DNA of 64,000 nucleotides, from positions 10,167 through 74,166 of IMG/VR virus record IMGVR_UViG_3300033463_004353; one strand, 5' to 3'. Position 1 is the first letter of the stretch; the number at the start of each line of letters is the position of its first letter. This document shows positions 10,155 to 53,101 of this stretch, piece by piece. The notes beneath the pieces are model-generated. The model was given only the letters and a program-made list of their open reading frames with translations. It was not told the origin of the DNA and did no database searches. The position numbers and the translations under genes were made by a program. Source of the DNA: a virus (lineage: Duplodnaviria; Caudoviricetes).

Positions 10155-12065
10155 TCACTTAGCATTGTTGAACATGTCACCAAATGGCTGAGATCTAGTT
10201 GCACCAGCTTGTGGGGTTGTTGAAGCATAGATCTTCGCAATGACTGGATTCCACACATCTTCAAGTGCTTTCTGTGCTGTCATCACTTTCTCATATGCAT
10301 CTTCTTTGTCTTCTGCTGTATGGTACTCTTTCAGCACTTCTGACAAATTGTCTTTAGCAGGAGTGATGTTGCTCTTGTCTTCTTCGGTGAACTTGTCTTT
10401 CATTGCTTCATCTTCAAATGCTGAGTCAATAGAGTTCACAAGCAATTGTGCCATGTTCAGCTTAGACATCTTCTCTTCACGCTTCTTGTCTTCTTCTTTG
10501 TGTGCTTCTGCATCTGCTTTCATCTTCTCAATCTCTTCATCACTCAAGTTATTGTTAGAGATTGTGATCTTCTGCTCTTTGCCTGTAGCTTTATCCTTTG
10601 CAGACACATTCAAGACACCATTTGCATCAATGTCAAATGCAACTTCAATCTGAGGAACACCTGCCTTAGCTGGAGCAATGCCTTCCAAGTTGAATGTCCC
10701 AATCACCTTGCAGTCTTTAGCATATGTGCGCTCACCTTGCAAGACAACTATTGTCACCGCTGTCTGATTGTCAACCGCAGTAGTGAATATCTGTGACTTC
10801 TTGCATGGGATAGTTGTCTGTGCCTCAATGATCTTTGCAAGTCTGCCTTCTGGGTCAAACTGGTTATGTGCCTCAATTCCCATAGAGATTGGAGTAACAT
10901 CCAGCAATACTATATCACCAACACCTTCTTCCTTGTTCAAGATAGCACCTTGGATTGATGCACCAATAGCTACTGCTTCATCTGGGTTGACAGACTTTGA
11001 TGGCTCTTTGCCAAAGAATGCTTTCACAGCATTCTGGATAGCCGGGATACGTGTTGATCCACCAACAAGTATGACCTCATCAATGTCACTTACGCCTAAG
11101 CCAGCTTGCTCTAGTGCAATGCGGCATGGCTCAATTGTCTTCTTGACAATGTGGTCAATCAGCTGGTCAAACTTAGCACGAGTGAGTGTCATCACAAGAT
11201 GCTTTGGTCCTGTCTGGTCAGCGGTGATGTATGGCAAGTTGATCTCTGTTGACATAGTAGAAGAGAGCTCAACCTTTGCTTTCTCAGCTGAGTCTTTCAA
11301 CCTTTGCATAGCTATTGGATCTTTGCTCAAGTCTATTGAGTTCTCTTTCTTGAATTCATCAACCATCCAAGATATCAATATGTTGTCAATGTCATCACCA
11401 CCAAGGTGTGTGTCACCACTTGTGGCAAGGACTTCAAACACGCCACCACCAAACTCAAGAATAGATACGTCATGAGTACCACCACCGAAATCAAACACAA
11501 CAATCTTCATGTCTTTGTCAGACTTATCAATGCCATAGGCTAATGCAGCTGCGGTTGGCTCATTGACAATACGCTTGACATCAAGGCCAGCAATCTTGCC
11601 AGCTTCAATAGTAGCTTGGCGCTGGCGATCATCAAAGTATGCAGGCACAGTAATGACAGCTTCTTTGACTTCTTGTCCAAGATAGTCTTCAGCGGTCTTC
11701 TTCATCTTCTGCAGAACCATTGATGAGATTTCTTGTGGAGTGTATCTCTTGCCATCTACTTGGACTTTTGGCAAGTTAGAGTCATCAATCAAGTCATAAG
11801 GCATATGCTTGTCTTGATCTTTCACCTTGTCGTATGTCATGCCGACATATCGCTTGATTGAGTAGATTGTGTTCTTTGGATTTGTGATAGCTTGGCGACG
11901 TGCTGCATCACCCACTTTACGCTCACCATCTTTGGTGAATGCTACGACAGAAGGAGTAGTTCGCTTGCCTTCTGAATTCTCAATGACATGAGGTTGGCCA
12001 CCTTCAAAGACAGCTACACAGCTGTTAGAGGTACCTAAATCGATACCAATAATCTTGTTGCTCAT
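10155..12065 (-). CDS. dnaK: DnaK/Hsp70 chaperone (start refined to [12 protein letters not shown])
   Basis: [48 protein letters not shown] signatures. Confidence 0.97.
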
Positions 12066-12177
12066 AATTGAATTATGTTTTGTAAATTTTTTGATGCTCA
12101 GAAACAATGCTGTAGAGCACTATTTCTGCTATAATAATAGTCTATCTACTATTATTTGTTCAACATTTTAACAACAT

Positions 12178-25510: not shown

Positions 25511-25820
25511 CTAGCCCATATATCTTTGCAGTTGCTAGCTCACAGTTGCACCCAAGAGATGGATTCCAACCACTAGCCATGAATATAGCATCACACCTAA
25601 GCAACTCACGGATGTCTTCACCCATGTACCATGCATAGTCATGCTCACGCTCACTTTTGATGCCATTGTCATCAAACTGATCTATGTTGATAGGGCCAAC
25701 TATCTCATATCCACTAAGCTCTTCTCTTGACTTTATAGCATCCATTGTTTCTCGCCATCGCCTAGCAACAGAGTCTTCTGCTATTGCAATAGGCAAGCTC
25801 ACATACATCTTCTTGCTCAT
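25470..25820 (-). CDS. DUF4406-like (nucleoside deoxyribosyltransferase-like fold) protein
   Basis: MYVSLPI...YMGEDIRELLRCDAIFMASGWNPSLGCNCELATAKIYGL. Confidence 0.75.
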   Translation of the reverse strand: MSKKMYVSLPIAIAEDSVARRWRETMDAIKSREELSGYEIVGPINIDQFDDNGIKSEREHDYAWYMGEDIRELLRCDAIFMASGWNPSLGCNCELATAKIYGLDVFYQDQNDHEEA

Positions 25821-26212
25821 AGCTCTTCAATCTCTTCTGCTTTTGGGACTTCCATGAACCAACCAACATTGCATGGTGCTACTTCAGCACCAGTCTTGTA
25901 GTTAGAGAAGCACTCATTCATCTCTTCCCAAGTGAATGTGCCATTGTATGCATTGCCACTGGCATCAAACAAGAAGCATTCATCCATGTCATTTGGGAAG
26001 AATTCACCAAACTTCTTGAAGATCTTCTTAGACACCATCCTCTCTGGTATGTGCTTGTACAAGCAAGATGTGCTCATTATGTCATAAGACACATCATCTG
26101 GTTGCTCAAAAGTGCCATATTCATCAACGATGTACACTTCTCCTGTTGCCTTGATGCCATCACACTCAAACTTGACTGCATCTCCAACATTGAATCTTGG
26201 GTTGCCTTTCAT
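25817..26212 (-). CDS. Hypothetical protein with SH3/KOW-like N-terminus
   Basis: PRFNVGDAVKF...GEVYIVD. Confidence 0.6.
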   Translation of the reverse strand: MKGNPRFNVGDAVKFECDGIKATGEVYIVDEYGTFEQPDDVSYDIMSTSCLYKHIPERMVSKKIFKKFGEFFPNDMDECFLFDASGNAYNGTFTWEEMNECFSNYKTGAEVAPCNVGWFMEVPKAEEIEEL

Positions 26213-26235
26213 ATCATCTCATCCAGTTAGTTTTC

Positions 26236-26397
26236 TCACTTTCCATAAAGCTTGCGCTTGTAGTGCCTTGCAAGGTCTTTGTACTTGCTGATGCTCTCTG
26301 CCATCTTCTCATACTCTGCTTCCTCTAAGACAACAAAGTTATAATGCTCTAAGATCTTCTTGCAAGCTTTAGCTATTAAGCCCTTCATCTTTTGCAT
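26236..26397 (-). CDS. Small basic hypothetical protein (53 aa, not in ORF track)
   Basis: Own translation MQKMKGLIAKACKKILEHYNFVVLEEAEYEKMAESISKYKDLARHYKRKLYGK*. Confidence 0.65.
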   Translation of the reverse strand: MQKMKGLIAKACKKILEHYNFVVLEEAEYEKMAESISKYKDLARHYKRKLYGK

Positions 26398-26414
26398 TCT
26401 TTTTTCTGAAAATA

Positions 26415-26773
26415 AAGCTAGCTGTGCTGGCTTGCACTAACAAGTAGCCTTGTATTAGCCAAAGCCAAAGGCAAAGACCTCAATCTTGCCAAAGCCAAAG
26501 ACAAAGGCATAGACAATACCGTGGTGAAAGAGGATTATCCATGCTTTTCAGTAGTGATTCGCTAATCACCAATGCATGTATCCAAAGTCACCAAGTGCTT
26601 GCTATGGAAGTAAGTTGTTGTGTCAAGATTGAGCCAAACTCTCTGTTGTAGATGCACGATTTCCATCATGCATTGATACTTGGTTTGCTATGTTGGCTAT
26701 TCTCTAGTGCAACTCAAGAGCTCTCTCAGGTAATTTCATGCAAGAGCCCACAACCAGCAACAGTCACTAGCTT
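26415..26773 (-). ncRNA. Candidate ~360-nt structured non-coding RNA (family not recognised)
   Basis: ORF-free gap; ends pair (26415-21 with 26767-73); nested helices 26479-88/26624-33 (10 bp) and 26523-27/26588-92; hairpins 26554-69 and 26654-71 (GGAA loop); G-U pairs favour the minus strand. Confidence 0.6.
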
Positions 26774-26780
26774 GTCATTT

Positions 26781-27665
26781 TCATATGCTGTTTATCAAGT
26801 CATAAGTTGGCTTGAGCTTGTCTGGTATGATGATCCTCAAAGCAATAGCATCTGACTTCTTCTTGCTGAGCTCAGCAAGATACTCATCATACATCTTCTT
26901 GTTGTTCATATGGTAGTCATTGACAGCTTTCAAGTACTTCTCATTGATTTCATTAGTCCTCTTGCTGATTTCTGACTTTATCTCAAACTTCATCTTGTTG
27001 AGCTCACTCTCATACTCACGATGCTTGTTGTGCAGCTTGAAGAAGATTTCATCAAGCTCTTCAATGCGAATAGATGGTGTCATGTCATAGACAACTATTG
27101 TGTCATTCATCGTCTCAACACGAGATGGGTAGTATTGTGAGTCAATTATCTCTTTCCTTGCTTCTGACAATGGGCTGTTCTGGTGGATAACTTTCCCAAT
27201 CACTGAGCACTTTGTCTCAAGTGAGTAGTACTTCAGTCGCTTGTCAGCATCCCACTCTCTTACGATATCTTCTTCAGTTGGTGATTGATCAGCATTTGGA
27301 TATCCATTGTCTTCATATCCATGCTCTTTCAAGAACTTCTCATAAGTGTAGTTCTCTTCAATCTTAGAGTACATCATCTCTTTGGCTTTGATAGCTTCTC
27401 TTAGCCAAGCAATCAGAGTCTTCACTTCATAGATTGTCTTGATGTGCTTCTCATGTATCTCATGCAAAGAAGCCAAGCTTGAGCCATTCTTCACTTTCTT
27501 CTTAGTGCCATTGATTTCAACTGTCTCATCTATGAAGCTCAGCTTTGAGATCTTCAGCTCAATGTTCGATATGTATTCTTTAGCCTTTGATGCAACAGAG
27601 TCAGCACTTGTAGAAGTGAGGCCTTCTTTGCCAAAGAAAACTAAGTCATTGTAGAAATTTTTCAT
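26781..27665 (-). CDS. Coiled-coil hypothetical protein
   Basis: GLTSTSADSVASKAKEY...LIAWLREAIKAKE; CTATTTTAA motif at 27696-27704. Confidence 0.75.
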   Translation of the reverse strand: MKNFYNDLVFFGKEGLTSTSADSVASKAKEYISNIELKISKLSFIDETVEINGTKKKVKNGSSLASLHEIHEKHIKTIYEVKTLIAWLREAIKAKEMMYSKIEENYTYEKFLKEHGYEDNGYPNADQSPTEEDIVREWDADKRLKYYSLETKCSVIGKVIHQNSPLSEARKEIIDSQYYPSRVETMNDTIVVYDMTPSIRIEELDEIFFKLHNKHREYESELNKMKFEIKSEISKRTNEINEKYLKAVNDYHMNNKKMYDEYLAELSKKKSDAIALRIIIPDKLKPTYDLINSI

Positions 27666-27753
27666 GTTATGTGCAATTCATTCTTTTTTCACTAATTAAA
27701 ATAGAAACTGCCATTTATCTGATTCAACATCATGCCAAGCAGTGTGTGTATGT

Positions 27754-45502: not shown

Positions 45503-48500
45503 ATGGATGGAAAAAACAAGAAACAATTGGTAAAGAAATCGGTACAAACAGAAAAGAGAGAGCTAGCAACTCCTACCGGACTTGGTTCATTTGACAAATA
45601 CCTTAGAGGAGAGTCTACAAGAGACTCTCTGTTCATAACTAGTGCCATCACCGGAACATCCGGAGACCAAGTCACTAATGCTATAAGTGCTATGAAGAGC
45701 AACAAGAGATCAATCTTAGGAGCAAACCAGTCATTGTATGCTATGATCTCTGACATAAAAGAAAGCATTGCCAAGATGGATATAGACAATGCTATAAAAG
45801 GTATCAAAGATGCTATTGGTGGGATGGCAAAAGCTACTAATGTGAGTGACAAGCCTAAAGAGTCAATCAACTATTCAGGGATACTAGAATCTATCAATCA
45901 AGAGATTTCTGGCATAAGATCTTCAATAGACAATAGCATCATCAAGGTAATAGAAGCTATAAATGCTGAAAGAGAGAACATCAACATAATAGAGAAGGTA
46001 GATGCAAGAATCTCAAAAGATAGCTTGTCTGAGATAAAGAATGCAATAGAGAACAATTTCAAAGAGACTAATGGCAAAATAAAAGTCACGGTTGATGGGT
46101 TGAATGAGAAAGACATAGATGCATTGAGGAAGTTCTCTGAGATGAACATGAATGCACTTGGTGTGAATGCCGAGTGGGTAAGCACACTTGTTGAGATATT
46201 GTCAAAGACTAAGCCATTAGATATGTCAAACTCTAACAAGAACTTAGCTCAAATAGCTGAAATTCTGGACAACACTGCATGGATATTCTCAAAGCCAAGA
46301 GTCATGTTGCTAAATGCAATCATGGCTAAAGGTGGATCGATTGAAAATCTAGTTGGAAAGAATGGGGCAATGTCTGGATTGTTTGAAAAACTTAAGACAA
46401 TCAAGCTAGATGAGAAGATGGATTTCACTAACACAATAGATGCATTGAAAGATGTATCTGGCTTGATGGATAAAGTTATAAAGATGATGCCTTATTTTAT
46501 TCTAATCAACAAGACATCAATGGCTAAAACTGTGTTGGATTCAATCAACGGGATAAAGGACATAATAGATGCGTCTGATATATGGAAGGATGGTAGTGAA
46601 TATCCTAAAATAAAGAAATCTATAAGTGACACTAATGAAGCGATAGACATCATAATGTCTACCGTGAAGTCTATTCAAGGATATAGTATAGCAAAGTCAT
46701 TTTTAGATGATGGAAAAATAAACCAAATAAGAGAGCTATTTGAACATAACATAAAGTCTCTCTTAAGAGAGATATCAAGCAACAAAAAGGACTACACAGT
46801 TGAAAAGAACACTACAACACAAATAAAAAATAGTATAGAAGACATCATATCTATTGTTGACAAAATATCAACACAAAAGGGAAATGACATCGATAAAGTA
46901 AAGAAAACATTGATTGGCATTGCTTCATTGTTTGGAATTAGTGTAGATGGCAAGAAAATGGATATCAACATAATGAAAAACTTGTTCCAAAGCTTAGGTT
47001 CATTGAAGGATGTCAGCAAGCAACAATCAGCAAAGATTGATTCTATTGCAAACCAAATGGAGTCAATAAAGACAATATTAGAAAGTATAAACTCCATTAG
47101 TGAGCTAAAGAAGATAGACAAAGACAAGATTATCAGCAATATCTCAAATTATTTTGAAACTATCAATGAGATCTACAAAGAGATAGATAGCAAGATAGAC
47201 AAGATATATGAAATTTCTTCAAAAGTTGATGGATTGAAAGCTGCCAATGAAAAGATAAAGGAAGGCATGGAAAGCATCAATGATGTTGCCGTCAAGACAC
47301 AATCATCAACAAAAGAGATAGAAGATGCACAAGTAAACATAGAAGGCATGACAAAGTTCATCATAGCATCAACTATTGTCCTGTCTGTTGGTGCACTATT
47401 TGTCATGCTTGGTGGTGGCAAGTTCATAAAGGCATCAATAGAATTTGCAGCCACATTGTCATTGTTTGAAGCATTAGTCTTGTTGCCAGTCATTACAACG
47501 GGTCCATTGTTGAAGAAGGCAATGCCATTAGGAAATCAGATGAATGGCTTCATCCTCACTTGTGTTGGATCTATGATGATTGGTGCATTGTTTGTCATGC
47601 TTGGTGGTGGCAAGGCTTTGAAAGCATCATTGATGTTTGGGATTGCACTCATGGCCTTTGAGACTCTAGTGATTGCTCCATTTATCTTGTTTGGCAAGTT
47701 CATGCCAACAATGAAAGCTAACTTAGAAGGCTTTGAGTACTTCATGCTAGCTTGTGTCGGCATAATGACAATTGGTGCATTGTTCATGATGCTAGACAAT
47801 GGCACATTTGTCAAGAATGCTATCAATTTTGGCATAACATTAATGATATTTGAAGCTATGGTCTTAGCACCAATATTGCTATTCAGCCATATTAGCAAAG
47901 ATGCAAAGAATTCATTAGATGAGATGGTAGACTTCATGATAGCATCAGCAGCAATAATGACAATTGGTGCATTGTTCATGATGATAAAGAATGGTGCATA
48001 TGCTAAGTATGCACTAGAGTTTGGCCTCACATTGATGGCATTTGAAGCATTAGTGCTAGCACCATTCTTAGTCATGTCATTGTTAGCTAAAGATGCATTG
48101 AAAGGAGCAAAGCTATTCTCTGGCTTGACCATTGTGACAACAGCAATAATGACTATTGGCGCATTGTTCATGATGATAAAGAATGGTGCATATGCTAAGT
48201 ATGCACTAGAGTTTGGTGCTACTCTCATGACATTTGAAGCATTAGTGCTAGCACCATTCTTAGTGTTTGGGTTGTTTGCTAAGAAAGCAAAAGCAAATGC
48301 AATAGAGTTGCTTGGATTGATTGCTGTTAGTGCTACTATATTGATTGTTGGAAGTCTTACTTATGAATATCTTGATGGAGTAGAATCTCCTTTAGCATTT
48401 ACTATCTTGCTTTCCGCATTCATAGCAGGAATGACCCATGTATTCAATTGGGTTAGTGGCAACTTGAGTAGGACAACAATAAATGAATTGAAAGAGTTTA

Positions 48501-51500
48501 GTCTGCTAGTAGCAATAAGTGCTGCTATATTGGTTGTTGGAAGCATTTCAATGAAGATAACTGGACCTTTGGCACCATTAGAATTTGCAGGACTATTGTC
48601 AGGATTTGTCTTAGTAATGTCTAAGGCAATGGGATTGATGAGTAAAGCAATTGGCAAGAATCCAAAAGTCTTAGCTGATGCCGCTGTATTAGGAACTTTT
48701 GTGTTGATGACTTCTATATCATTGTCACTAGGTGCTATGTTTGTTGCTAAGTATGGTTTAGAGCCGGTCATCCAATATGGTGTGATACTACTAGCATTTG
48801 TTGGTAGCATGTCATTAGTTCTTGGATTGCTTGGAGCATTGTCTCCAGCATTGCTACCAGGTGAAGCTGCAGCTATAGGTCTTGGAGTAGCATTGTTGGC
48901 TTTGACAACGTCATTGACAATACTTGGCACATTGTTTGATGGCAAGCTAAACATCGAAGCTATAAACAATAACATATCAGCAATAGAAGAAATAGTATCT
49001 GTCGGTTTGCTATGGATGTTTGTCAAACTATCAATTGTTGGATTGCAAGCTTCACTTGGAATATATGGTGCATTAGCGATATCTGGTGCTTTATTAGCAT
49101 TAAGCACAACATTCAAGATAATAGATATCATGTTAAAAGAAACAGATGTTGAATCTAACTTTGATAAGCTAAATGACATAATTGGCTTATCTATGGCATG
49201 GTTCTTTGAAAAACTTATCCTTCTTTTACCATTTGCCATTCTTGGCGGTACATCTGCATTGCTGATAAGCACTACTTTGCTAGCTCTATCTGGATCATTG
49301 AAGATTGTTAGCTTGATTATGGAAGACTATAGTAGTGTAAAATCTGGTTTAGACAATTTGACAAACTTGATATCAGGCAAAGATTCTAACCTTTGGGCAT
49401 TATTTGGAAAGATAATAGCATTAGGAGCTGTTTCTATATTAGCTAGACCGGCAGTAAGGAGCTTCTCTTCAACAATGAAAATACTCTCAAATGCAATGGT
49501 GTCTATAGCTGAAGGTGAAGAGGCTATCAACAAGATGAACATATCTGACAATTCTGAAGAAGTTATCAAGAATATCAATGCATTCATAAGCATTGGAAAT
49601 GGAATAGACAAAGATGGATTAGATAAGCTAAAGAAGAATATTCGTCGTGTAAGATATCCAATTAGTGAGTTGTCAACAGTGATGATGCTAGTTGGAAGCA
49701 CCGTAAAAGACTTAGCTGACATGAAAGTAGCTATAGCATGGGACAAGAATGGAAATGCAATAAGATGGAGGCAGATAAGCCAGTCAGATTTTGATCTAGC
49801 GAAGGATAACATAAAAGACATATTGAACAATACATTTGAAGGCCTGAGCAAAGCATTAGAAGTGATAGATGATTCTAAGAGGGCAAGCTTGTTGAAGAAA
49901 GTCATCAACTCATCATTGAAGATTGGTGATATGATATCTAACATTGCATTAGGGATATCTAACATGGCTATCTTGTCAGTTGCCAATTCATTTGACCAAA
50001 CAACTGGAAAGCCAACATCATTCAAGAGATTGTCTGAAAGCCATTTCTCAGAAGCAAGACAGAACATAAAGCAAATATTGACAAATACATTTGATGCGTT
50101 GAAAGAAGTATACAATGACTTAGACAATTCTAATCTGCTAGACAGTGATTTCTTGGGCCTTGGCAGCACACCAATAGACAAGATAGTGAATGCATCAATG
50201 AATGTCTCAAACATGATTTCTGCAATTGTTGAATCATTGTTCTATATGGCATCTATGGAATTCCCTGTATATGAGAATGGCAAAATTGCTAAATACCAAA
50301 AGATTGGTGCTAAAGAGTTTGATGATGCTAATGCTAATATATTGAAAATAATAACTGACCAATTTGACACATTAGAAAGCCTAGCACAAAGGCCTGATTT
50401 GAAGAATGCTTTATCATGGGACACATGGTTCACTAGGAGTGATGCCGGAAAGATAATAAAGATGGCAATGGACATGTCTTCTATGATATCAAATTTGGCA
50501 ACTGGAATATCAATGATGGCTACTATGCAAATAGCTAACAGATGGGATCCAAAGACAGGAAAGCCGATTGGATATGTTAAAGTGACAGACGCTGAAATGA
50601 TAGAAGCATCCAACAATGTTGTCAAGATAATCAATGCATTGCTTGGTGGTGGTGAAAATGGAATAAAGTTCAATAAAATATCTTCTAACAAAGAAACAAT
50701 AAAGAAAGCTATAGAATCTGTCAACCCAATAAGTGAGATGATATCATCTTTAGCCGATGGGATTGTCAAGCTAGCATCCGGACAGGTACCTAATAAATGG
50801 AACAATGATGGAGTTGCTATTGGATATGACACTATCAACAGTGAAACATATGTAAAGATAGGTGAAGTTGTTGGAGACATCATAACAGCTGTTCCAAAAG
50901 CTTTGATTGAATTGGCAAATGATAAAAAAAATAAAAAATTTTTTGATGGTGGTAATAATCCACAGTTGAAAGACATAATAGAATCAGTAAGTGGAGTGAC
51001 TGAAATAGTTTCAAGCATTGCTGATAGTGTTGTAAAGTTTGCTCAAGGAAAGATTCCAGTATACAAAGATGGAAAGATAATAAGGTATGATGATATCAAC
51101 TTTGGTGATGAAAATGGAAAGGGTGGAATAGTAGAAAAACTATCTACAGTCATTAGCTCTATAATAACAGCAACAAGTGATGCTATAATCAACTGCTATA
51201 ATGCTAATGACAAGATGTTCTCAACAACAGGTGAAAACACCCCATTCTCAACAGCTGTAAATGGAATATCATCATCAATATCTATTGTGTCAAATCTAGT
51301 GTCTGCAGTAGTGTCATTAGGCAATGCACGACTTCCGAAGAGAATTGATCCAAAGACAGGCAATGTACTTGAGTATGAAGATTTAGGAAGCAGTGTAGAC
51401 AAAATACTAGAGAATTTGAAGAAGATTATTGATACAGGAGATGGCAAAAGCTTGTTGATGACTATTCCTACAATGATCAGCACGTTGTATGAAAAAATAA

Positions 51501-53101
51501 GTACTGGTAATTTAAATAAAAACATTGATGAAGTAAAAAATTTCATTAATCCGTCTATTGAAATGATTTCATCTGTTGCTAAGACAATTGTAGACATTTC
51601 TTCTTACAAGATACCATTAGGGTTTGACAAAGATGGCAAAGCAAATGGATATGAGGTATTTAACCAAGCTCATATAGGAAAAATGAAAGAAAATGCATTG
51701 AACATGATAAATGCATTATCAGGAATATTCAATGATGTAAATTTGAAAACAAATGTAGAAAATGCTTTGAAAAACTCTGATGATATCAACAAGAACATTA
51801 CAAGTATAATCAACAACTTTGAAATAATAGTAAGTGGATTGAAAGGATTGCATGAAGACTATTCTGGAACTATTGCTAAGATATTAGAATATAATAGATC
51901 TAAAGACAAGAGTCTTGCTAATGACATAGTCACGGTGATAAACTCATTTAGCAGTGCACTTAGTGATGAGTCAAAGATAAACATGATAAGCAAGAGCATA
52001 TCAGACAAGATAAGTGATGGGATTCTATCAACTAATGATGCTATAAGGAACATCATCTCAACATTGTCTAATGTTGCATCTATGTATTCTGAATATGACT
52101 TTGAGTCAATGACAAGTCGTTTGAATGCTCTCGACCCAGAAAAGATATTGCAAATGGTTTCTAAGATATCAACTATGATATCTAATGCGGACTCAACATT
52201 GCCGGCTTATGCAAGGATAGACAACATACAGAAATTTATAAACCAGTCGTATAAAGTAAAGAACTTAATAGAAAGCTATATAGATGTTGCAAACTCTATT
52301 GGGAACTTGAGAGATGCTATACAAAAGAACAACATAACATTAACAGATGTTGACATGAAGGTAGAAGATCTGCCAATGTCTGTAATGGGAGCGATAAAGT
52401 CTAAGATATCTAAGATAAGAGAAGACATAAACTCAATTGGATACTCTTCTAAAGGCTTAGGCATGATGGCATCTGACTTAGACAGGCTCTCTAGAGCTAT
52501 AAACAACACACCAGTTGACATCGATAAGAAGATAAATAGCTTGAAGCAATCATTAGACAACATATCTAAGATAGATGAGACAAACATAGCAGAATTCAAC
52601 AATCAAGTAGAAAGCATTGACAAGTATGTGAATACAGTGAATAGCATTGATATCAAAAAGGCTAACTCAATGGCAGAGATAGCTAGCCAAATGAGATCTT
52701 ATGTTACACAACTATCTAAGATGGACAGTGTTGCAGACATGCTATACAAGCTATCTAGAGTGCTAGAAGAAGTGAACTCAAGCTTGCATGAGTCTAAGGA
52801 CGTTGTAGAAGGAGCTAGAATGATACAAGACAAGAGAACTGAGAAGATGAATGAGTCTATCAAGACGATAAAGGAGATAATGGATAAAGAGCTCATTGTC
52901 AGGGTTTCATCTGACACAACAGAAAACACTGATGACTACAATAGCAATTCAATCTCAACTGCAACACCAGAATACAATAATTTAATTGGAACTGAATATG
53001 GTAAAGGTGCCACACCAAACAGCAATGACAACAATTCATTAAGCAAACAGAAAAACAAAGCAAATGAAGCAAAAGCAAGAGGAGGAAAATCTATAAAATG
53101 A
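45503..53101 (+). CDS. Tape measure protein
   Basis: 2532 aa, helical, central 64-aa hydrophobic repeats, followed by a tail-tube-like gene; TTATTTTTAA at 45443-45452. Confidence 0.75.
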   Translation: MDGKNKKQLVKKSVQTEKRELATPTGLGSFDKYLRGESTRDSLFITSAITGTSGDQVTNAISAMKSNKRSILGANQSLYAMISDIKESIAKMDIDNAIKGIKDAIGGMAKATNVSDKPKESINYSGILESINQEISGIRSSIDNSIIKVIEAINAERENINIIEKVDARISKDSLSEIKNAIENNFKETNGKIKVTVDGLNEKDIDALRKFSEMNMNALGVNAEWVSTLVEILSKTKPLDMSNSNKNLAQIAEILDNTAWIFSKPRVMLLNAIMAKGGSIENLVGKNGAMSGLFEKLKTIKLDEKMDFTNTIDALKDVSGLMDKVIKMMPYFILINKTSMAKTVLDSINGIKDIIDASDIWKDGSEYPKIKKSISDTNEAIDIIMSTVKSIQGYSIAKSFLDDGKINQIRELFEHNIKSLLREISSNKKDYTVEKNTTTQIKNSIEDIISIVDKISTQKGNDIDKVKKTLIGIASLFGISVDGKKMDINIMKNLFQSLGSLKDVSKQQSAKIDSIANQMESIKTILESINSISELKKIDKDKIISNISNYFETINEIYKEIDSKIDKIYEISSKVDGLKAANEKIKEGMESINDVAVKTQSSTKEIEDAQVNIEGMTKFIIASTIVLSVGALFVMLGGGKFIKASIEFAATLSLFEALVLLPVITTGPLLKKAMPLGNQMNGFILTCVGSMMIGALFVMLGGGKALKASLMFGIALMAFETLVIAPFILFGKFMPTMKANLEGFEYFMLACVGIMTIGALFMMLDNGTFVKNAINFGITLMIFEAMVLAPILLFSHISKDAKNSLDEMVDFMIASAAIMTIGALFMMIKNGAYAKYALEFGLTLMAFEALVLAPFLVMSLLAKDALKGAKLFSGLTIVTTAIMTIGALFMMIKNGAYAKYALEFGATLMTFEALVLAPFLVFGLFAKKAKANAIELLGLIAVSATILIVGSLTYEYLDGVESPLAFTILLSAFIAGMTHVFNWVSGNLSRTTINELKEFSLLVAISAAILVVGSISMKITGPLAPLEFAGLLSGFVLVMSKAMGLMSKAIGKNPKVLADAAVLGTFVLMTSISLSLGAMFVAKYGLEPVIQYGVILLAFVGSMSLVLGLLGALSPALLPGEAAAIGLGVALLALTTSLTILGTLFDGKLNIEAINNNISAIEEIVSVGLLWMFVKLSIVGLQASLGIYGALAISGALLALSTTFKIIDIMLKETDVESNFDKLNDIIGLSMAWFFEKLILLLPFAILGGTSALLISTTLLALSGSLKIVSLIMEDYSSVKSGLDNLTNLISGKDSNLWALFGKIIALGAVSILARPAVRSFSSTMKILSNAMVSIAEGEEAINKMNISDNSEEVIKNINAFISIGNGIDKDGLDKLKKNIRRVRYPISELSTVMMLVGSTVKDLADMKVAIAWDKNGNAIRWRQISQSDFDLAKDNIKDILNNTFEGLSKALEVIDDSKRASLLKKVINSSLKIGDMISNIALGISNMAILSVANSFDQTTGKPTSFKRLSESHFSEARQNIKQILTNTFDALKEVYNDLDNSNLLDSDFLGLGSTPIDKIVNASMNVSNMISAIVESLFYMASMEFPVYENGKIAKYQKIGAKEFDDANANILKIITDQFDTLESLAQRPDLKNALSWDTWFTRSDAGKIIKMAMDMSSMISNLATGISMMATMQIANRWDPKTGKPIGYVKVTDAEMIEASNNVVKIINALLGGGENGIKFNKISSNKETIKKAIESVNPISEMISSLADGIVKLASGQVPNKWNNDGVAIGYDTINSETYVKIGEVVGDIITAVPKALIELANDKKNKKFFDGGNNPQLKDIIESVSGVTEIVSSIADSVVKFAQGKIPVYKDGKIIRYDDINFGDENGKGGIVEKLSTVISSIITATSDAIINCYNANDKMFSTTGENTPFSTAVNGISSSISIVSNLVSAVVSLGNARLPKRIDPKTGNVLEYEDLGSSVDKILENLKKIIDTGDGKSLLMTIPTMISTLYEKISTGNLNKNIDEVKNFINPSIEMISSVAKTIVDISSYKIPLGFDKDGKANGYEVFNQAHIGKMKENALNMINALSGIFNDVNLKTNVENALKNSDDINKNITSIINNFEIIVSGLKGLHEDYSGTIAKILEYNRSKDKSLANDIVTVINSFSSALSDESKINMISKSISDKISDGILSTNDAIRNIISTLSNVASMYSEYDFESMTSRLNALDPEKILQMVSKISTMISNADSTLPAYARIDNIQKFINQSYKVKNLIESYIDVANSIGNLRDAIQKNNITLTDVDMKVEDLPMSVMGAIKSKISKIREDINSIGYSSKGLGMMASDLDRLSRAINNTPVDIDKKINSLKQSLDNISKIDETNIAEFNNQVESIDKYVNTVNSIDIKKANSMAEIASQMRSYVTQLSKMDSVADMLYKLSRVLEEVNSSLHESKDVVEGARMIQDKRTEKMNESIKTIKEIMDKELIVRVSSDTTENTDDYNSNSISTATPEYNNLIGTEYGKGATPNSNDNNSLSKQKNKANEAKARGGKSIK

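What the first reader, a model, noticed from the sequence alone, without database searches (positions are those of the whole stretch)
26415..26773. Large, closed, multi-domain structured RNA candidate (~360 nt) in an otherwise gene-dense region
Seen: the only long ORF-free gap inside a co-directional gene run. On the minus strand the 5' and 3' ends pair (AAGCTAG/CTAGCTT). Domain 1 has nested TTGCT/AGCAA, GGCT/AGCC, CTCT/AGAG and TGCA/TGCA helices. There is also a GCATGAT-GGAA-ATCGTGC GNRA hairpin. Domain 2 is closed by a 10-bp helix (26479-88/26624-33) with nested GGTGA/TCACC, GGAT/ATCC, CATGC/GCATG and GGTGATT/AATCACT. G-U pairs work only on the minus strand. I could not match tmRNA, RNase P or group I/II intron signatures. 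Inference: an uncharacterised phage ncRNA.
Basis: partly seen in the sequence, partly recalled or inferred. Interest (0 to 1): 0.72.

Follow-up and report, generated by a model that had tools for sequence, protein, structure and literature searches.

The report
Phage structured RNA with hexamer arms
The gap holds a real, expressed, folded RNA of about 360 bases that always follows one unknown phage gene; gene and RNA form a widespread, undescribed pair in gut and rumen phages of Bacteroidales.

Summary
Window 26415-26773 (minus strand) has no plausible ORF. Four size-fractionated rumen RNA libraries (one study) have contigs on 26383-26771 only, none on the flanking genes.

The RNA lies directly 3' of a 294-aa gene from a large uncharacterised family (1,164 clusters at 50% identity). 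Nearly every relative in phages, metagenomes and Bacteroidales genomes is followed by a 250-480 nt ORF-free stretch. These stretches share one architecture:
- end-closing helices;
- two single-stranded arms of G-N-Y-Y-U-U hexamers;
- a helix formed by the inter-arm spacer and an upstream segment.

Across 84 distinct RNAs all 32 modelled pairs show compensatory changes. The window's copy has the same order of elements, but its sequence has diverged. The main model misses it; a model from its nearer clade puts its best window hit there (E 0.03).

It matches no Rfam family, and I found no paper describing it. My best reading is the RNA half of a protein-RNA module, with the arms as a periodic protein-binding track. 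The function is unknown.

This scan has noted similar "DUF7873 plus hexamer RNA" modules on other DNA. I could not show homology to them.

The parts
26415..26773 (-). The structured RNA, from the 5' strand to the 3' strand of the closing helix P1 (about 359 nt). A U-rich tail follows at 26414-26408.
   Evidence: Fold z -3.59. RNA-library contigs cover 26383-26771 and nothing on either flank. No ORF.
26752..26773 (-). P1, 5' strand (AAGCUAG, bulge, CUGU, bulge, GCUGGUU). It pairs with 26415-26432.
   Evidence: MFE helices with pair probability 0.79-0.93. The equivalent end-closing helix covaries in the family.
26415..26432 (-). P1, 3' strand (AGCCAGC ACAG CUAGCUU), followed by UAUUUU.
   Evidence: The X10 contig ends at 26418. 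In relatives the P1 3' strand is likewise followed by a U run.
26718..26749 (-). 5' hairpin H1 (GGGCUCUU ... GAGAGCUC).
   Evidence: Pair probability 0.96. It occupies the position of the family's 5' hairpin but lacks that hairpin's ACUGA/GAAAC internal loop.
26693..26712 (-). Second long-range helix, 5' strand (UUGCACUA ... UAGCC). It pairs with 26432-26449.
   Evidence: 18-nt inverted repeat, 78% complementary. UGCACUA/UAGUGCA has pair probability 0.98. It matches the position of family helix P3.
26652..26673 (-). Hairpin with GGAA (GNRA-type) loop: AUGCAUGAU-GGAA-AUCGUGCAU.
   Evidence: Pair probability 0.98. It lies in the region that is variable in relatives.
26624..26633 (-). Core helix Pc, 5' strand (CUCAAUCUUG).
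   Evidence: It pairs with 26479-26488: 13-nt inverted repeat, 92% complementary. 1 of 200 spacer shuffles does as well. The equivalent helix has compensatory changes in 8 of 10 pairs in the nearer clades.
26508..26606 (-). Long irregular hairpin inside the Pc loop (CAUAG, UGGUGA, GGAU, CAUGC and UGGUGAUU stems).
   Evidence: Relatives carry a shorter hairpin at the same place, directly 5' of arm 1. One natural variant keeps a pair (26520) and one breaks a pair (26525).
26489..26508 (-). Arm 1: three hexamers GCCUUU GUCUUU GGCUUU (+GG).
   Evidence: In the family the hexamer has invariant G1 and U5 at a 6-nt period. The natural variants at 26501 fall on the free second position of a hexamer.
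26479..26488 (-). Core helix Pc, 3' strand (CAAGAUUGAG). This is the spacer between the two arms.
26459..26478 (-). Arm 2: three hexamers GUCUUU GCCUUU GGCUUU (+GG).
   Evidence: The best hit of model R2 in the whole window covers 26449-26558.
26781..27665 (-). Partner gene: a 294-aa protein of an uncharacterised family, helical with two beta-hairpins. Invariant motifs include LT.TSA (LTSTSAN in most relatives; ...ANxAKE varies) and AWLRE.IKAK.
   Evidence: 579 relatives. 1,164 clusters at 50% identity. Model pLDDT 87. No Pfam, NCBIfam, PADLOC or PDB match.
26395..26419 (-). 3' copy of a 25-nt direct repeat (UAUUUU ... GAAAAAAGAAUG). It overlaps the RNA's 3' end and the start of the 53-aa ORF. 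The 5' copy is at 27679-27703, just upstream of the 294-aa gene.
   Evidence: Only two matches in the window; 0.1 expected.

Best explanation
Window 26415-26773 (minus strand) encodes a stable, highly structured non-coding RNA. I read it as the RNA half of a two-part module whose other half is the 294-aa protein encoded immediately upstream.

Shown: the RNA is closed by pairing of its two ends. Its core is a helix (Pc) whose 3' strand is flanked on both sides by single-stranded runs of G-N-Y-Y-U-U hexamers.

Inferred:
- Gene and RNA are transcribed together, and the RNA then accumulates as a separate stable species.
- The folded scaffold holds out the two hexamer arms as a track with a 6-nt period. 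Copies of a protein bind this track. The partner protein is the most likely binder; a host single-strand RNA binder is the alternative.
- The particle acts on host RNA or tRNA metabolism, or works as a self-contained mobile module of the defence, counter-defence or addiction type.
For: A real, folded, non-coding element:
- z -3.6 on the minus strand and weaker on the plus strand.
- Stops in all frames.

Expressed as a discrete species:
- Contigs from four size-fractionated RNA libraries cover only 26383-26771, with ends at the P1 boundaries. There is no cover on 600-900 nt of coding flank on either side, which argues against DNA carry-over.

Gene-RNA linkage:
- 66 of 77 viral loci have an ORF-free gap of 230 nt or more right after the homologous gene, median 356 nt.
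- Covariance model R1 finds the RNA on the same strand, just after the gene, in 67 of 80 bacterial-genome loci and in 74 of 80 metagenome loci.
- Genes beyond the RNA differ from locus to locus (EamA transporter, PcfJ-like, HD, glycosidase, primase-like), so gene plus RNA travel as a unit.

Family structure:
- 31 of 32 RNAalifold pairs are compensated.
- On 84 distinct RNAs, 95.4% of cells pair and 32 of 32 pairs have double changes. Slid controls pair at 37-44%.
- Pc helix: 95% paired, 8 of 10 pairs compensated, 0 of 500 shuffles as good. Its sequence differs in nearly every cluster.

Arms:
- G is invariant and U nearly invariant at a strict 6-nt period, with three hexamers in arm 1 and five to six in arm 2.
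- No pairs are predicted for the arms in the family consensus.

The window copy:
- It has the same order of elements: P1, 5' hairpin, second long-range helix, variable hairpin, Pc 5' strand, hairpin, arm 1, Pc 3' strand, arm 2, closing strands.
- Model R2 puts its best hit of the 128-kb search space on the arms (26.1 bits, E 0.033).
Against: - The window RNA is not detected by the main-family model R1 (E about 0.9 on the arms only) or by nhmmer profiles. Its membership rests on synteny, architecture and a weak R2 hit. In that hit the model placed the Pc 5' strand wrongly.
- It lacks the family's 5' GUAA / ACUGA...GAAAC hairpin motif.
- Protein-RNA binding is not shown by any result here, and the protein has no recognisable RNA-binding domain.
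- The RNA evidence comes from one study, from contigs without strand or true ends.
- In the single-sequence fold, arm 2 is partly paired with upstream segments (probability 0.46-0.6), so the arms may not be fully single-stranded in this copy.
- One natural variant (26525) breaks a predicted pair without compensation.
Confidence: 0.6

Rival explanations
1. Decoy or sponge for a host single-strand RNA-binding protein. The arms would titrate or recruit a host protein such as a cold-shock-domain protein, much as CsrB/RsmZ RNAs soak up CsrA. The upstream protein would play another role, such as chaperone or stabiliser.
For: - The window's arms contain GUCUUUG twice. The preferred site of Bacillus subtilis CspB is 5'-GTCTTTG/T-3', pyrimidine-rich (PMC1904285, abstract, seen).
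- Hexamer or heptamer spacing fits one OB-fold per repeat (my inference).
- The control genome Bacteroides thetaiotaomicron encodes a CSD protein.
Against: - The main-family hexamer is GUUCUU/GCUCUU, not GUCUUU, so the exact CspB match is a feature of one clade.
- The strict linkage to one protein gene is better explained if that protein is the binder.
- No binding data exist.
- No CSD gene lies in the 74-kb record, which is only 26% complete.
Confidence: 0.12
2. Addiction or defence-type pair, similar in logic to type III toxin-antitoxin systems. The repeat-bearing RNA would neutralise or be processed by the adjacent protein, and the pair would spread as a selfish or protective cassette.
For: - Gene plus RNA form a self-contained unit found in phages, beside conjugative-element genes (PcfJ-like, DUF4120) and in chromosomes, with unrelated neighbours.
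- A 25-nt direct repeat flanks the cassette in the window.
- Related phages keep the surrounding helicase...RuvC block but lack the cassette.
Against: - The gene order is the reverse of ToxIN-type loci. The repeats are 6-nt units inside a large folded scaffold, not tandem units of about 36 nt.
- The protein matches no toxin, nuclease or PADLOC model.
- No Rfam antitoxin family matches.
Confidence: 0.12
3. Cis-acting untranslated region. The structure would be the 3' UTR of the 294-aa gene or the leader of the downstream genes. It would control termination, mRNA stability or translation, possibly as an autoregulatory binding site, and would not act in trans.
For: - It lies between co-directional genes.
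- The P1 3' strand is followed by a U run, here and in relatives.
- In the crAss-size cluster the P1 5' strand overlaps the stop codon of the gene.
- The nearest clade has a separate intrinsic terminator after the RNA.
Against: - RNA-library contigs cover the RNA but not the coding sequence on either side. This indicates a separate, more stable species.
- 250-480 nt with four or more covarying helices and conserved single-stranded arms is far more than a terminator or stability element needs.
- The downstream genes are not conserved, which excludes a conserved leader function.
Confidence: 0.12
4. A DNA-level element (replication origin, iterons, packaging or recombination site), or a decayed or recoded protein-coding gene.
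For: - It lies in a replication and recombination gene block (helicase, RuvC).
- Direct repeats are present.
- In one minus-strand frame, all five stops inside the gap are TGA.
Against: - Compensatory base changes and G-U pairs are strand-specific.
- The 6-nt period does not fit the double-helix repeat.
- RNA contigs are confined to the element.
- TGA is a true stop in this phage: the 294-aa gene ends at TGA exactly where its relatives end.
- Arm spacing in relatives is not a multiple of three.
- 7-9 stops per frame.
Confidence: 0.04

Closest known systems
YrlA / bacterial Y RNAs with Ro60 (Rsr) (Rfam RF02553; Chen et al. 2014, PMC4201824)
   Same: - A structured RNA of a few hundred nucleotides or less, closed by pairing of its ends.
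- Encoded next to, and on the same strand as, the gene of a partner protein.
- Present in phages as well as bacteria.
- One clade of the present family (L087, L091) has tRNA-like modules inside the RNA that give sub-threshold YrlA hits (40.5 and 37.9 bits against a cut-off of 69).
   Different: - The window RNA gives no YrlA hit at E<=10. By eye it has no T-arm or D-arm and no GNCGAA motif.
- The partner is not a TROVE/Ro60 protein, and no TROVE gene lies in the 74-kb record.
- The hexamer arms are not a described feature of Y RNAs, as far as I know.
OLE RNA with its Oap protein partners (PMC3413148, PMC12054373)
   Same: A large, ornate, highly conserved ncRNA of unknown biochemical function that works with a dedicated protein partner. 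This is a likeness of concept, taken from the abstracts of those papers.
   Different: - OLE is about 600 nt and is found in Bacillota extremophiles and anaerobes; its partner is a membrane protein.
- There is no sequence or structure match here (Rfam scan).
- The present RNA is carried by phages and mobile elements in Bacteroidales.
CsrB/RsmZ-type protein-sequestering RNAs (established knowledge)
   Same: Many copies of a short single-stranded motif are displayed on a folded scaffold, the arrangement used to bind many copies of one protein.
   Different: - The Csr/Rsm motifs are GGA in hairpin loops, not hexamers at a strict 6-nt period in two linear arms.
- No CsrA-type partner is present.
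- No Rfam match.
- Binding is not shown here.
Type III toxin-antitoxin loci such as ToxIN (established knowledge)
   Same: A compact, mobile pair of one protein gene and one repeat-bearing RNA, found in phages and mobile elements.
   Different: - The RNA is downstream of the gene, not upstream.
- The repeats are 6 nt, not about 36 nt.
- The RNA is a large closed fold.
- The protein has no likeness to known type III toxins.
ROOL and GOLLD, large ornate RNAs of phages and prophages (10.1101/2024.12.08.627333; Rfam)
   Same: Large structured RNAs of unknown function, often phage-borne and near tRNA genes. ROOL was first seen in rumen samples. Many members of the present family also sit in phage tRNA arrays.
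   Different: - No match to either Rfam model.
- The present RNA is smaller (250-480 nt).
- It is strictly linked to one protein gene. As far as I recall, ROOL and GOLLD are not.

Membership tests
   The RNA starts 8 nt after the stop of the 294-aa gene. The gene is a full-length family member.
   Arms at 26508-26489 and 26478-26459 with a 10-nt spacer. Family profile.
   10 of 10 pairs between 26633-26624 and 26488-26479. 1 of 200 shuffles as good. The helix covaries in relatives.
   P1 and the UGCACUA/UAGUGCA helix, probabilities 0.79-0.98. U-rich tail. Predicted from a single sequence only.
   The motif is absent from the window RNA by inspection against alignments A3 and A4. A different hairpin stands in its place.
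   R1 (main cluster) gives no significant hit. R2 (nearer clades) gives its best hit of the window at 26449-26558 (-), 26.1 bits, E 0.033 with a rough calibration. nhmmer profiles find nothing.
YrlA / Y RNA (Rfam RF02553) | Match to the Rfam covariance model | tested here: not met
   No hit at E<=10 on 26200-27000 and none at gathering score in the window.
YrlA / Y RNA (Rfam RF02553) | tRNA-like domain (T- and D-like stem-loops) and the GNCGAA(N)G motif (PMC4201824) | tested here: not met
   No tRNA-like element by ARAGORN or Rfam. No GNCGAA or GUUCRA motif in the RNA by inspection of the sequence.
YrlA / Y RNA (Rfam RF02553) | Encoded within about 4 kb of a Ro60/TROVE gene on the same strand (PMC4201824) | tested here: not met
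   No TROVE match anywhere in the 74-kb record. The neighbours within 4 kb are other genes. The record is only 26% complete, so a distant Ro60 gene is not excluded.
Pfam DUF7873 (partner protein named in earlier notes of this scan) | Match of the partner protein to the Pfam model | tested here: not met
   No DUF7873 hit among family members scanned at E<=1 to 10 (34, 10, 8). A remote relation could not be tested, because no DUF7873 sequence or accession was at hand.
Type III antitoxin RNA (ToxI-like) | Tandem repeats of about 34-36 nt upstream of a ToxN-type endoribonuclease gene | tested here: not met
   The repeats are 6-nt units, and the RNA is downstream of the gene. The protein has no toxin match.
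Group I/II intron, RNase P RNA, tmRNA, 6S, ROOL, GOLLD, OLE | Match to the Rfam model | tested here: not met
   No match. The flanking ORFs are separate genes, and the upstream one ends where its relatives end.

The most novel reading that the evidence does not exclude
The RNA and the 294-aa protein form a new class of ribonucleoprotein carried by phages and mobile elements. The two arms, with invariant G and U every six bases, would act as an assembly track on which protomers of the partner protein line up, one per hexamer. The closed scaffold would position this array to capture or remodel a host RNA target such as tRNA or a tRNA-directed defence nuclease. In some lineages the scaffold carries tRNA-like heads. 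This would give many Bacteroidales phages an RNA-based counter-measure that has not been described.
Probability: 0.3. Interest if true: 0.9.

Novelty: categorically new. Interest (0 to 1): 0.78.

Why it matters
If this holds, a large and diverse protein family would gain a defined RNA partner. The family has more than a thousand clusters at 50% identity. It is spread through gut and rumen phages, including many contigs of about 100 kb from human gut samples, and through Bacteroidales chromosomes. A new class of structured RNA would join the few large bacterial and phage ncRNAs known to work with dedicated proteins.

Bacteroidales lack the classical RNA chaperones Hfq and ProQ (my own knowledge), so a phage-borne RNA-protein particle there would open a new view of how phages handle host RNA.

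The strict 6-nt periodic motif makes a clear, testable prediction about the mode of protein binding. The module is small, about 1.3 kb, and self-contained, so it can be moved into a laboratory Bacteroides strain and tested directly.

Tried and rejected
- Coding or recoding. One minus frame has only TGA stops in the gap. However, TGA ends the upstream gene exactly at the family's C-terminus, the read-through product is repeat-derived, and arm spacing in relatives breaks any frame. Rejected.
- Nucleotide homologues. blastn against phage records found none, and blastn against six related jumbo-phage loci found none. Those phages keep helicase...RuvC but lack the cassette.
- Close relatives of the window's gene. 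Single-protein scans of viral and metagenome contigs found none. The other contig carrying the gene is identical. So covariation within the window's own lineage could not be tested.
- A home-made descriptor (arms plus helix) was either too loose or too insensitive. Its other hit, at 11450-11497, is DnaK-type coding sequence.
- Main-family model R1 and nhmmer profiles do not reach the window or its nearest clade.
- Fold of the partner protein. Foldseek against PDB gave nothing at E<=0.001. VIA-align gave only generic helical matches, Z<=6.4. The protein atlas gave only unnamed clusters.
- Homodimer prediction of the partner protein returned "no answer". It counts neither for nor against binding.
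- Antisense role of the arms. The best duplexes with window transcripts are scattered and similar in energy (-23 to -25 kcal/mol), with no outstanding target.
- Ro60 and cold-shock genes in the phage record: none found, but the record is about a quarter of the genome.
- Literature. No paper holds "DUF7873". Searches for a phage RNA with hexamer repeats or for a Bacteroidales phage ncRNA found nothing relevant. The 2026 preprint on three tRNA-mimic families concerns other motifs.
Full report
WHAT IS THERE

The window is part of a 74-kb IMG/VR virus record that CheckV estimates to be 26% complete. It is a fragment of a large phage. On the minus strand a 294-aa ORF (26781-27665) is followed by 383 bases without a plausible ORF, then a 53-aa ORF (26236-26397) and further small genes. 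Each minus-strand frame of the gap has 7-9 stops.

For the slightly longer 26398-26780 stretch the minus strand gives z -3.48 and the plus strand z -2.17.

- the end-closing helix, which extends to about 18 bp with two bulges;
- a second long-range helix (UGCACUA/UAGUGCA);
- a hairpin with a GGAA loop;
- the 10-bp helix 26633-26624 with 26488-26479, and a long irregular hairpin inside it.

The 3' strand of that 10-bp helix is flanked on both sides by three hexamers of the form G-N-C-U-U-U, at 26508-26491 and 26478-26461.

IS IT EXPRESSED?

The sequence index found four RNA runs of bovine gut, all from one study and all size-fractionated single-end libraries. When laid on 25800-27700, their contigs cover 26418-26587, 26575-26734, 26383-26601, 26527-26771 and 26511-26769, and nothing else.

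The roughly 600 and 900 bases of coding sequence on the two sides serve as an internal control. DNA carry-over would cover them too. Three contig ends (26418, 26769, 26771) lie within a few bases of the two ends of the closing helix. Contigs cannot give strand or true ends, so this is good but not final evidence for a discrete stable RNA.

The contigs carry seven variants at six positions:
- Two alternative changes at one site fall on the free second position of a hexamer.
- One turns a G-U pair into A-U.
- One breaks a pair in the inner hairpin.
- Three lie in unpaired stretches.

WHAT IT BELONGS TO

The 294-aa protein has 579 relatives in the 90%-clustered collection. A profile search finds 1,164 clusters at 50% identity.

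I fetched 80 viral loci, 80 metagenome loci and 80 loci from bacterial genomes, plus five from exact-protein look-ups. The bacterial records are mostly Muribaculaceae, Porphyromonadaceae, Prevotella and Bacteroides, including complete chromosomes, with a few Bacillota.

In 66 of 77 viral loci the gene is followed by at least 230 ORF-free bases, median 356. Thirty-eight of these gaps are alike at the DNA level, although their phages are diverse. None matches an Rfam family. The loci often sit in tRNA arrays, and one clade (L087, L091) has tRNA-like modules inside the gap that give sub-threshold YrlA hits.

FAMILY STRUCTURE

RNAalifold on 22 non-redundant gaps recovers three elements: an end-closing helix P1, a 5' hairpin with a conserved ACUGA/GAAAC internal loop, and a 13-bp long-range helix P3. 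Of the 32 pairs, 31 have compensatory changes.

A covariance model of this alignment (R1) finds the RNA just after the gene and on the same strand in 67 of 80 genome loci and 74 of 80 metagenome loci. On the resulting 84 distinct sequences, 95.4% of cells pair and all 32 pairs show double changes. With the 3' partners slid by 1-3 columns only 37-44% pair. That alignment was fitted to the model, which favours it. The independent MAFFT/RNAalifold result says the same.

The column profile shows the arms clearly. G is at 99-100% every sixth position, and U at 91-100% two and four positions later. Arm 1 has three hexamers and arm 2 has five or six.

The spacer between the arms pairs with a segment 30-90 nt upstream of arm 1 in nearly every cluster, each time with a different sequence. 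In an alignment of the clades nearest the window this helix (Pc) is 95% paired, with 8 of 10 pairs compensated. No shuffle in 500 does as well, and slid controls pair at 29-50%.

Genes beyond the RNA are unrelated from locus to locus. Gene plus RNA therefore behave as a self-contained unit.

DOES THE WINDOW'S RNA BELONG?

In favour:
- It has the same position and strand relative to the homologous gene.
- It has the same order of all elements: P1, 5' hairpin, second long-range helix, variable hairpin, Pc 5' strand, hairpin, arm 1, Pc 3' strand, arm 2, closing strands, U run.
- Its Pc helix starts CUC and ends GAGG, as in the nearest clade.
- Model R2, built from that clade and the GUCUUU-type clades, places its best hit of the whole window (both strands) on the arms at 26449-26558 (26.1 bits, E 0.033).

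Against:
- R1 and two nhmmer profiles do not detect it.
- It lacks the family's 5' motif.
- In the R2 hit the model mis-assigned the Pc 5' strand, because the window has a much longer hairpin inside the Pc loop.

I conclude that it is a divergent member. That it is a real structured RNA tied to this gene is well supported. Its homology to the main cluster rests on synteny and architecture, not on a significant sequence score.

HOW IT MAY WORK

Shown:
- The fold statistics.
- Confinement of RNA contigs to the element.
- The gene-RNA linkage.
- Covariation of the helices in relatives.
- The invariant 6-nt period of the arms.

Inferred:
- The arms are single-stranded. This fits the lack of pairs in the family consensus, but in the window's single-sequence fold arm 2 is partly paired at probability 0.46-0.6.
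- They bind a protein with a six-base footprint.
- That protein is the neighbour.

The protein model is confident (pLDDT 87). It is a helical bundle with two helix / beta-hairpin / long-helix units. It matches nothing in PDB, Pfam, NCBIfam or PADLOC.

An alternative binder is a host cold-shock-type protein. The window's arms carry GUCUUUG twice, which is the preferred site reported for B. subtilis CspB (PMC1904285). The main cluster uses GUUCUU instead.

The mobility of the cassette keeps a toxin-antitoxin-like or defence-related role open. A 25-nt direct repeat flanks it in the window, and related phages with the same neighbouring genes lack it. A purely cis-acting role is less likely, given the separate accumulation of the RNA and the non-conserved downstream genes.

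COMPARISON WITH WHAT IS KNOWN

The nearest described systems are YrlA-type Y RNAs with Ro60, and OLE RNA with its Oap proteins. Both pair a structured RNA with a dedicated protein.

The window RNA fails each YrlA criterion I could test: the Rfam model, the tRNA-like arms, the GNCGAA motif, and a Ro60 gene nearby. It also fails the ToxI, intron, RNase P, tmRNA, ROOL and GOLLD models.

I found no paper describing this RNA or this protein family.

Earlier notes of this scan describe, on other genomes, a [quoted passage not shown]. The hexamer type and the gene-RNA layout look alike. However, none of the family members I scanned matches Pfam DUF7873, and the window RNA has no tRNA-like part. A common origin is therefore a lead, not a result.

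VERDICT

The element is a divergent member of a widespread, apparently undescribed RNA class linked to one protein family. Its biochemical function remains open.

Noticed in passing
window 27679-27703 and 26395-26419 (minus strand): A 25-nt direct repeat (TATTTT, 7 nt, GAAAAAAGAATG; 3 mismatches) occurs only twice in the window. One copy lies just upstream of the 294-aa gene and the other at the 3' end of the RNA and the start of the 53-aa ORF. The repeat thus brackets the 1.28-kb gene-plus-RNA cassette. It may be a duplicated promoter or ribosome-binding region, or the scar of cassette insertion.
   Followed up: partly
window 10155-12107 (minus strand): The 650-aa ORF carries DnaK/Hsp70-type sequence ([24 protein letters not shown]), so it looks like a phage-encoded Hsp70-like chaperone. 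Its codons produced a false twin-arm hit at 11450-11497.
   Followed up: partly
L058:2640-2880, L074, L064, L084 (viral contigs): In the GUCUUU-type clades a second conserved non-coding element of about 230 nt follows the twin-arm RNA and ends in an intrinsic terminator. A shared block reads ...ACAAGTAATCTTTAAACTTGGTGACTATTATCCC...CTCAACAAGATGAA.... No Rfam match in L058, L074 and L084; L064 was not scanned.
   Followed up: no
L043:1198-1268: A RAGATH-1 hammerhead ribozyme match just below the gathering score (55.2 against 56.3 bits) lies directly upstream of the partner-protein gene in one viral contig.
   Followed up: no
L016:2649-2719, and the same place in the other contigs of about 97 kb: In the crAss-size human-gut cluster the RNA is followed within 4 nt by a tRNA-like gene that ARAGORN calls with a two-base anticodon. 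Rfam's tRNA model did not report it at E<=0.1.
   Followed up: no
L088:1415-1484 and L090:682-760: Partial tmRNA-model matches (45.5 bits against a cut-off of 47, and 22.1 bits) lie upstream of the partner gene in two viral contigs that are rich in tRNA genes.
   Followed up: no
window 45503-53101 (plus strand): A 2,532-aa ORF on the plus strand is overlapped by a string of 100-300-aa ORFs on the minus strand. The long one is presumably the real gene and the others shadow ORFs.
   Followed up: no
window 26445-26460 (minus strand): GGCUA occurs twice, at the end of arm 2 and 11 nt further on. UAGCC at 26699-26695 can pair with either copy. The two pairings exclude each other and have middling probabilities (0.46). 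Another first-stage note suggested a conformational switch.
   Followed up: partly
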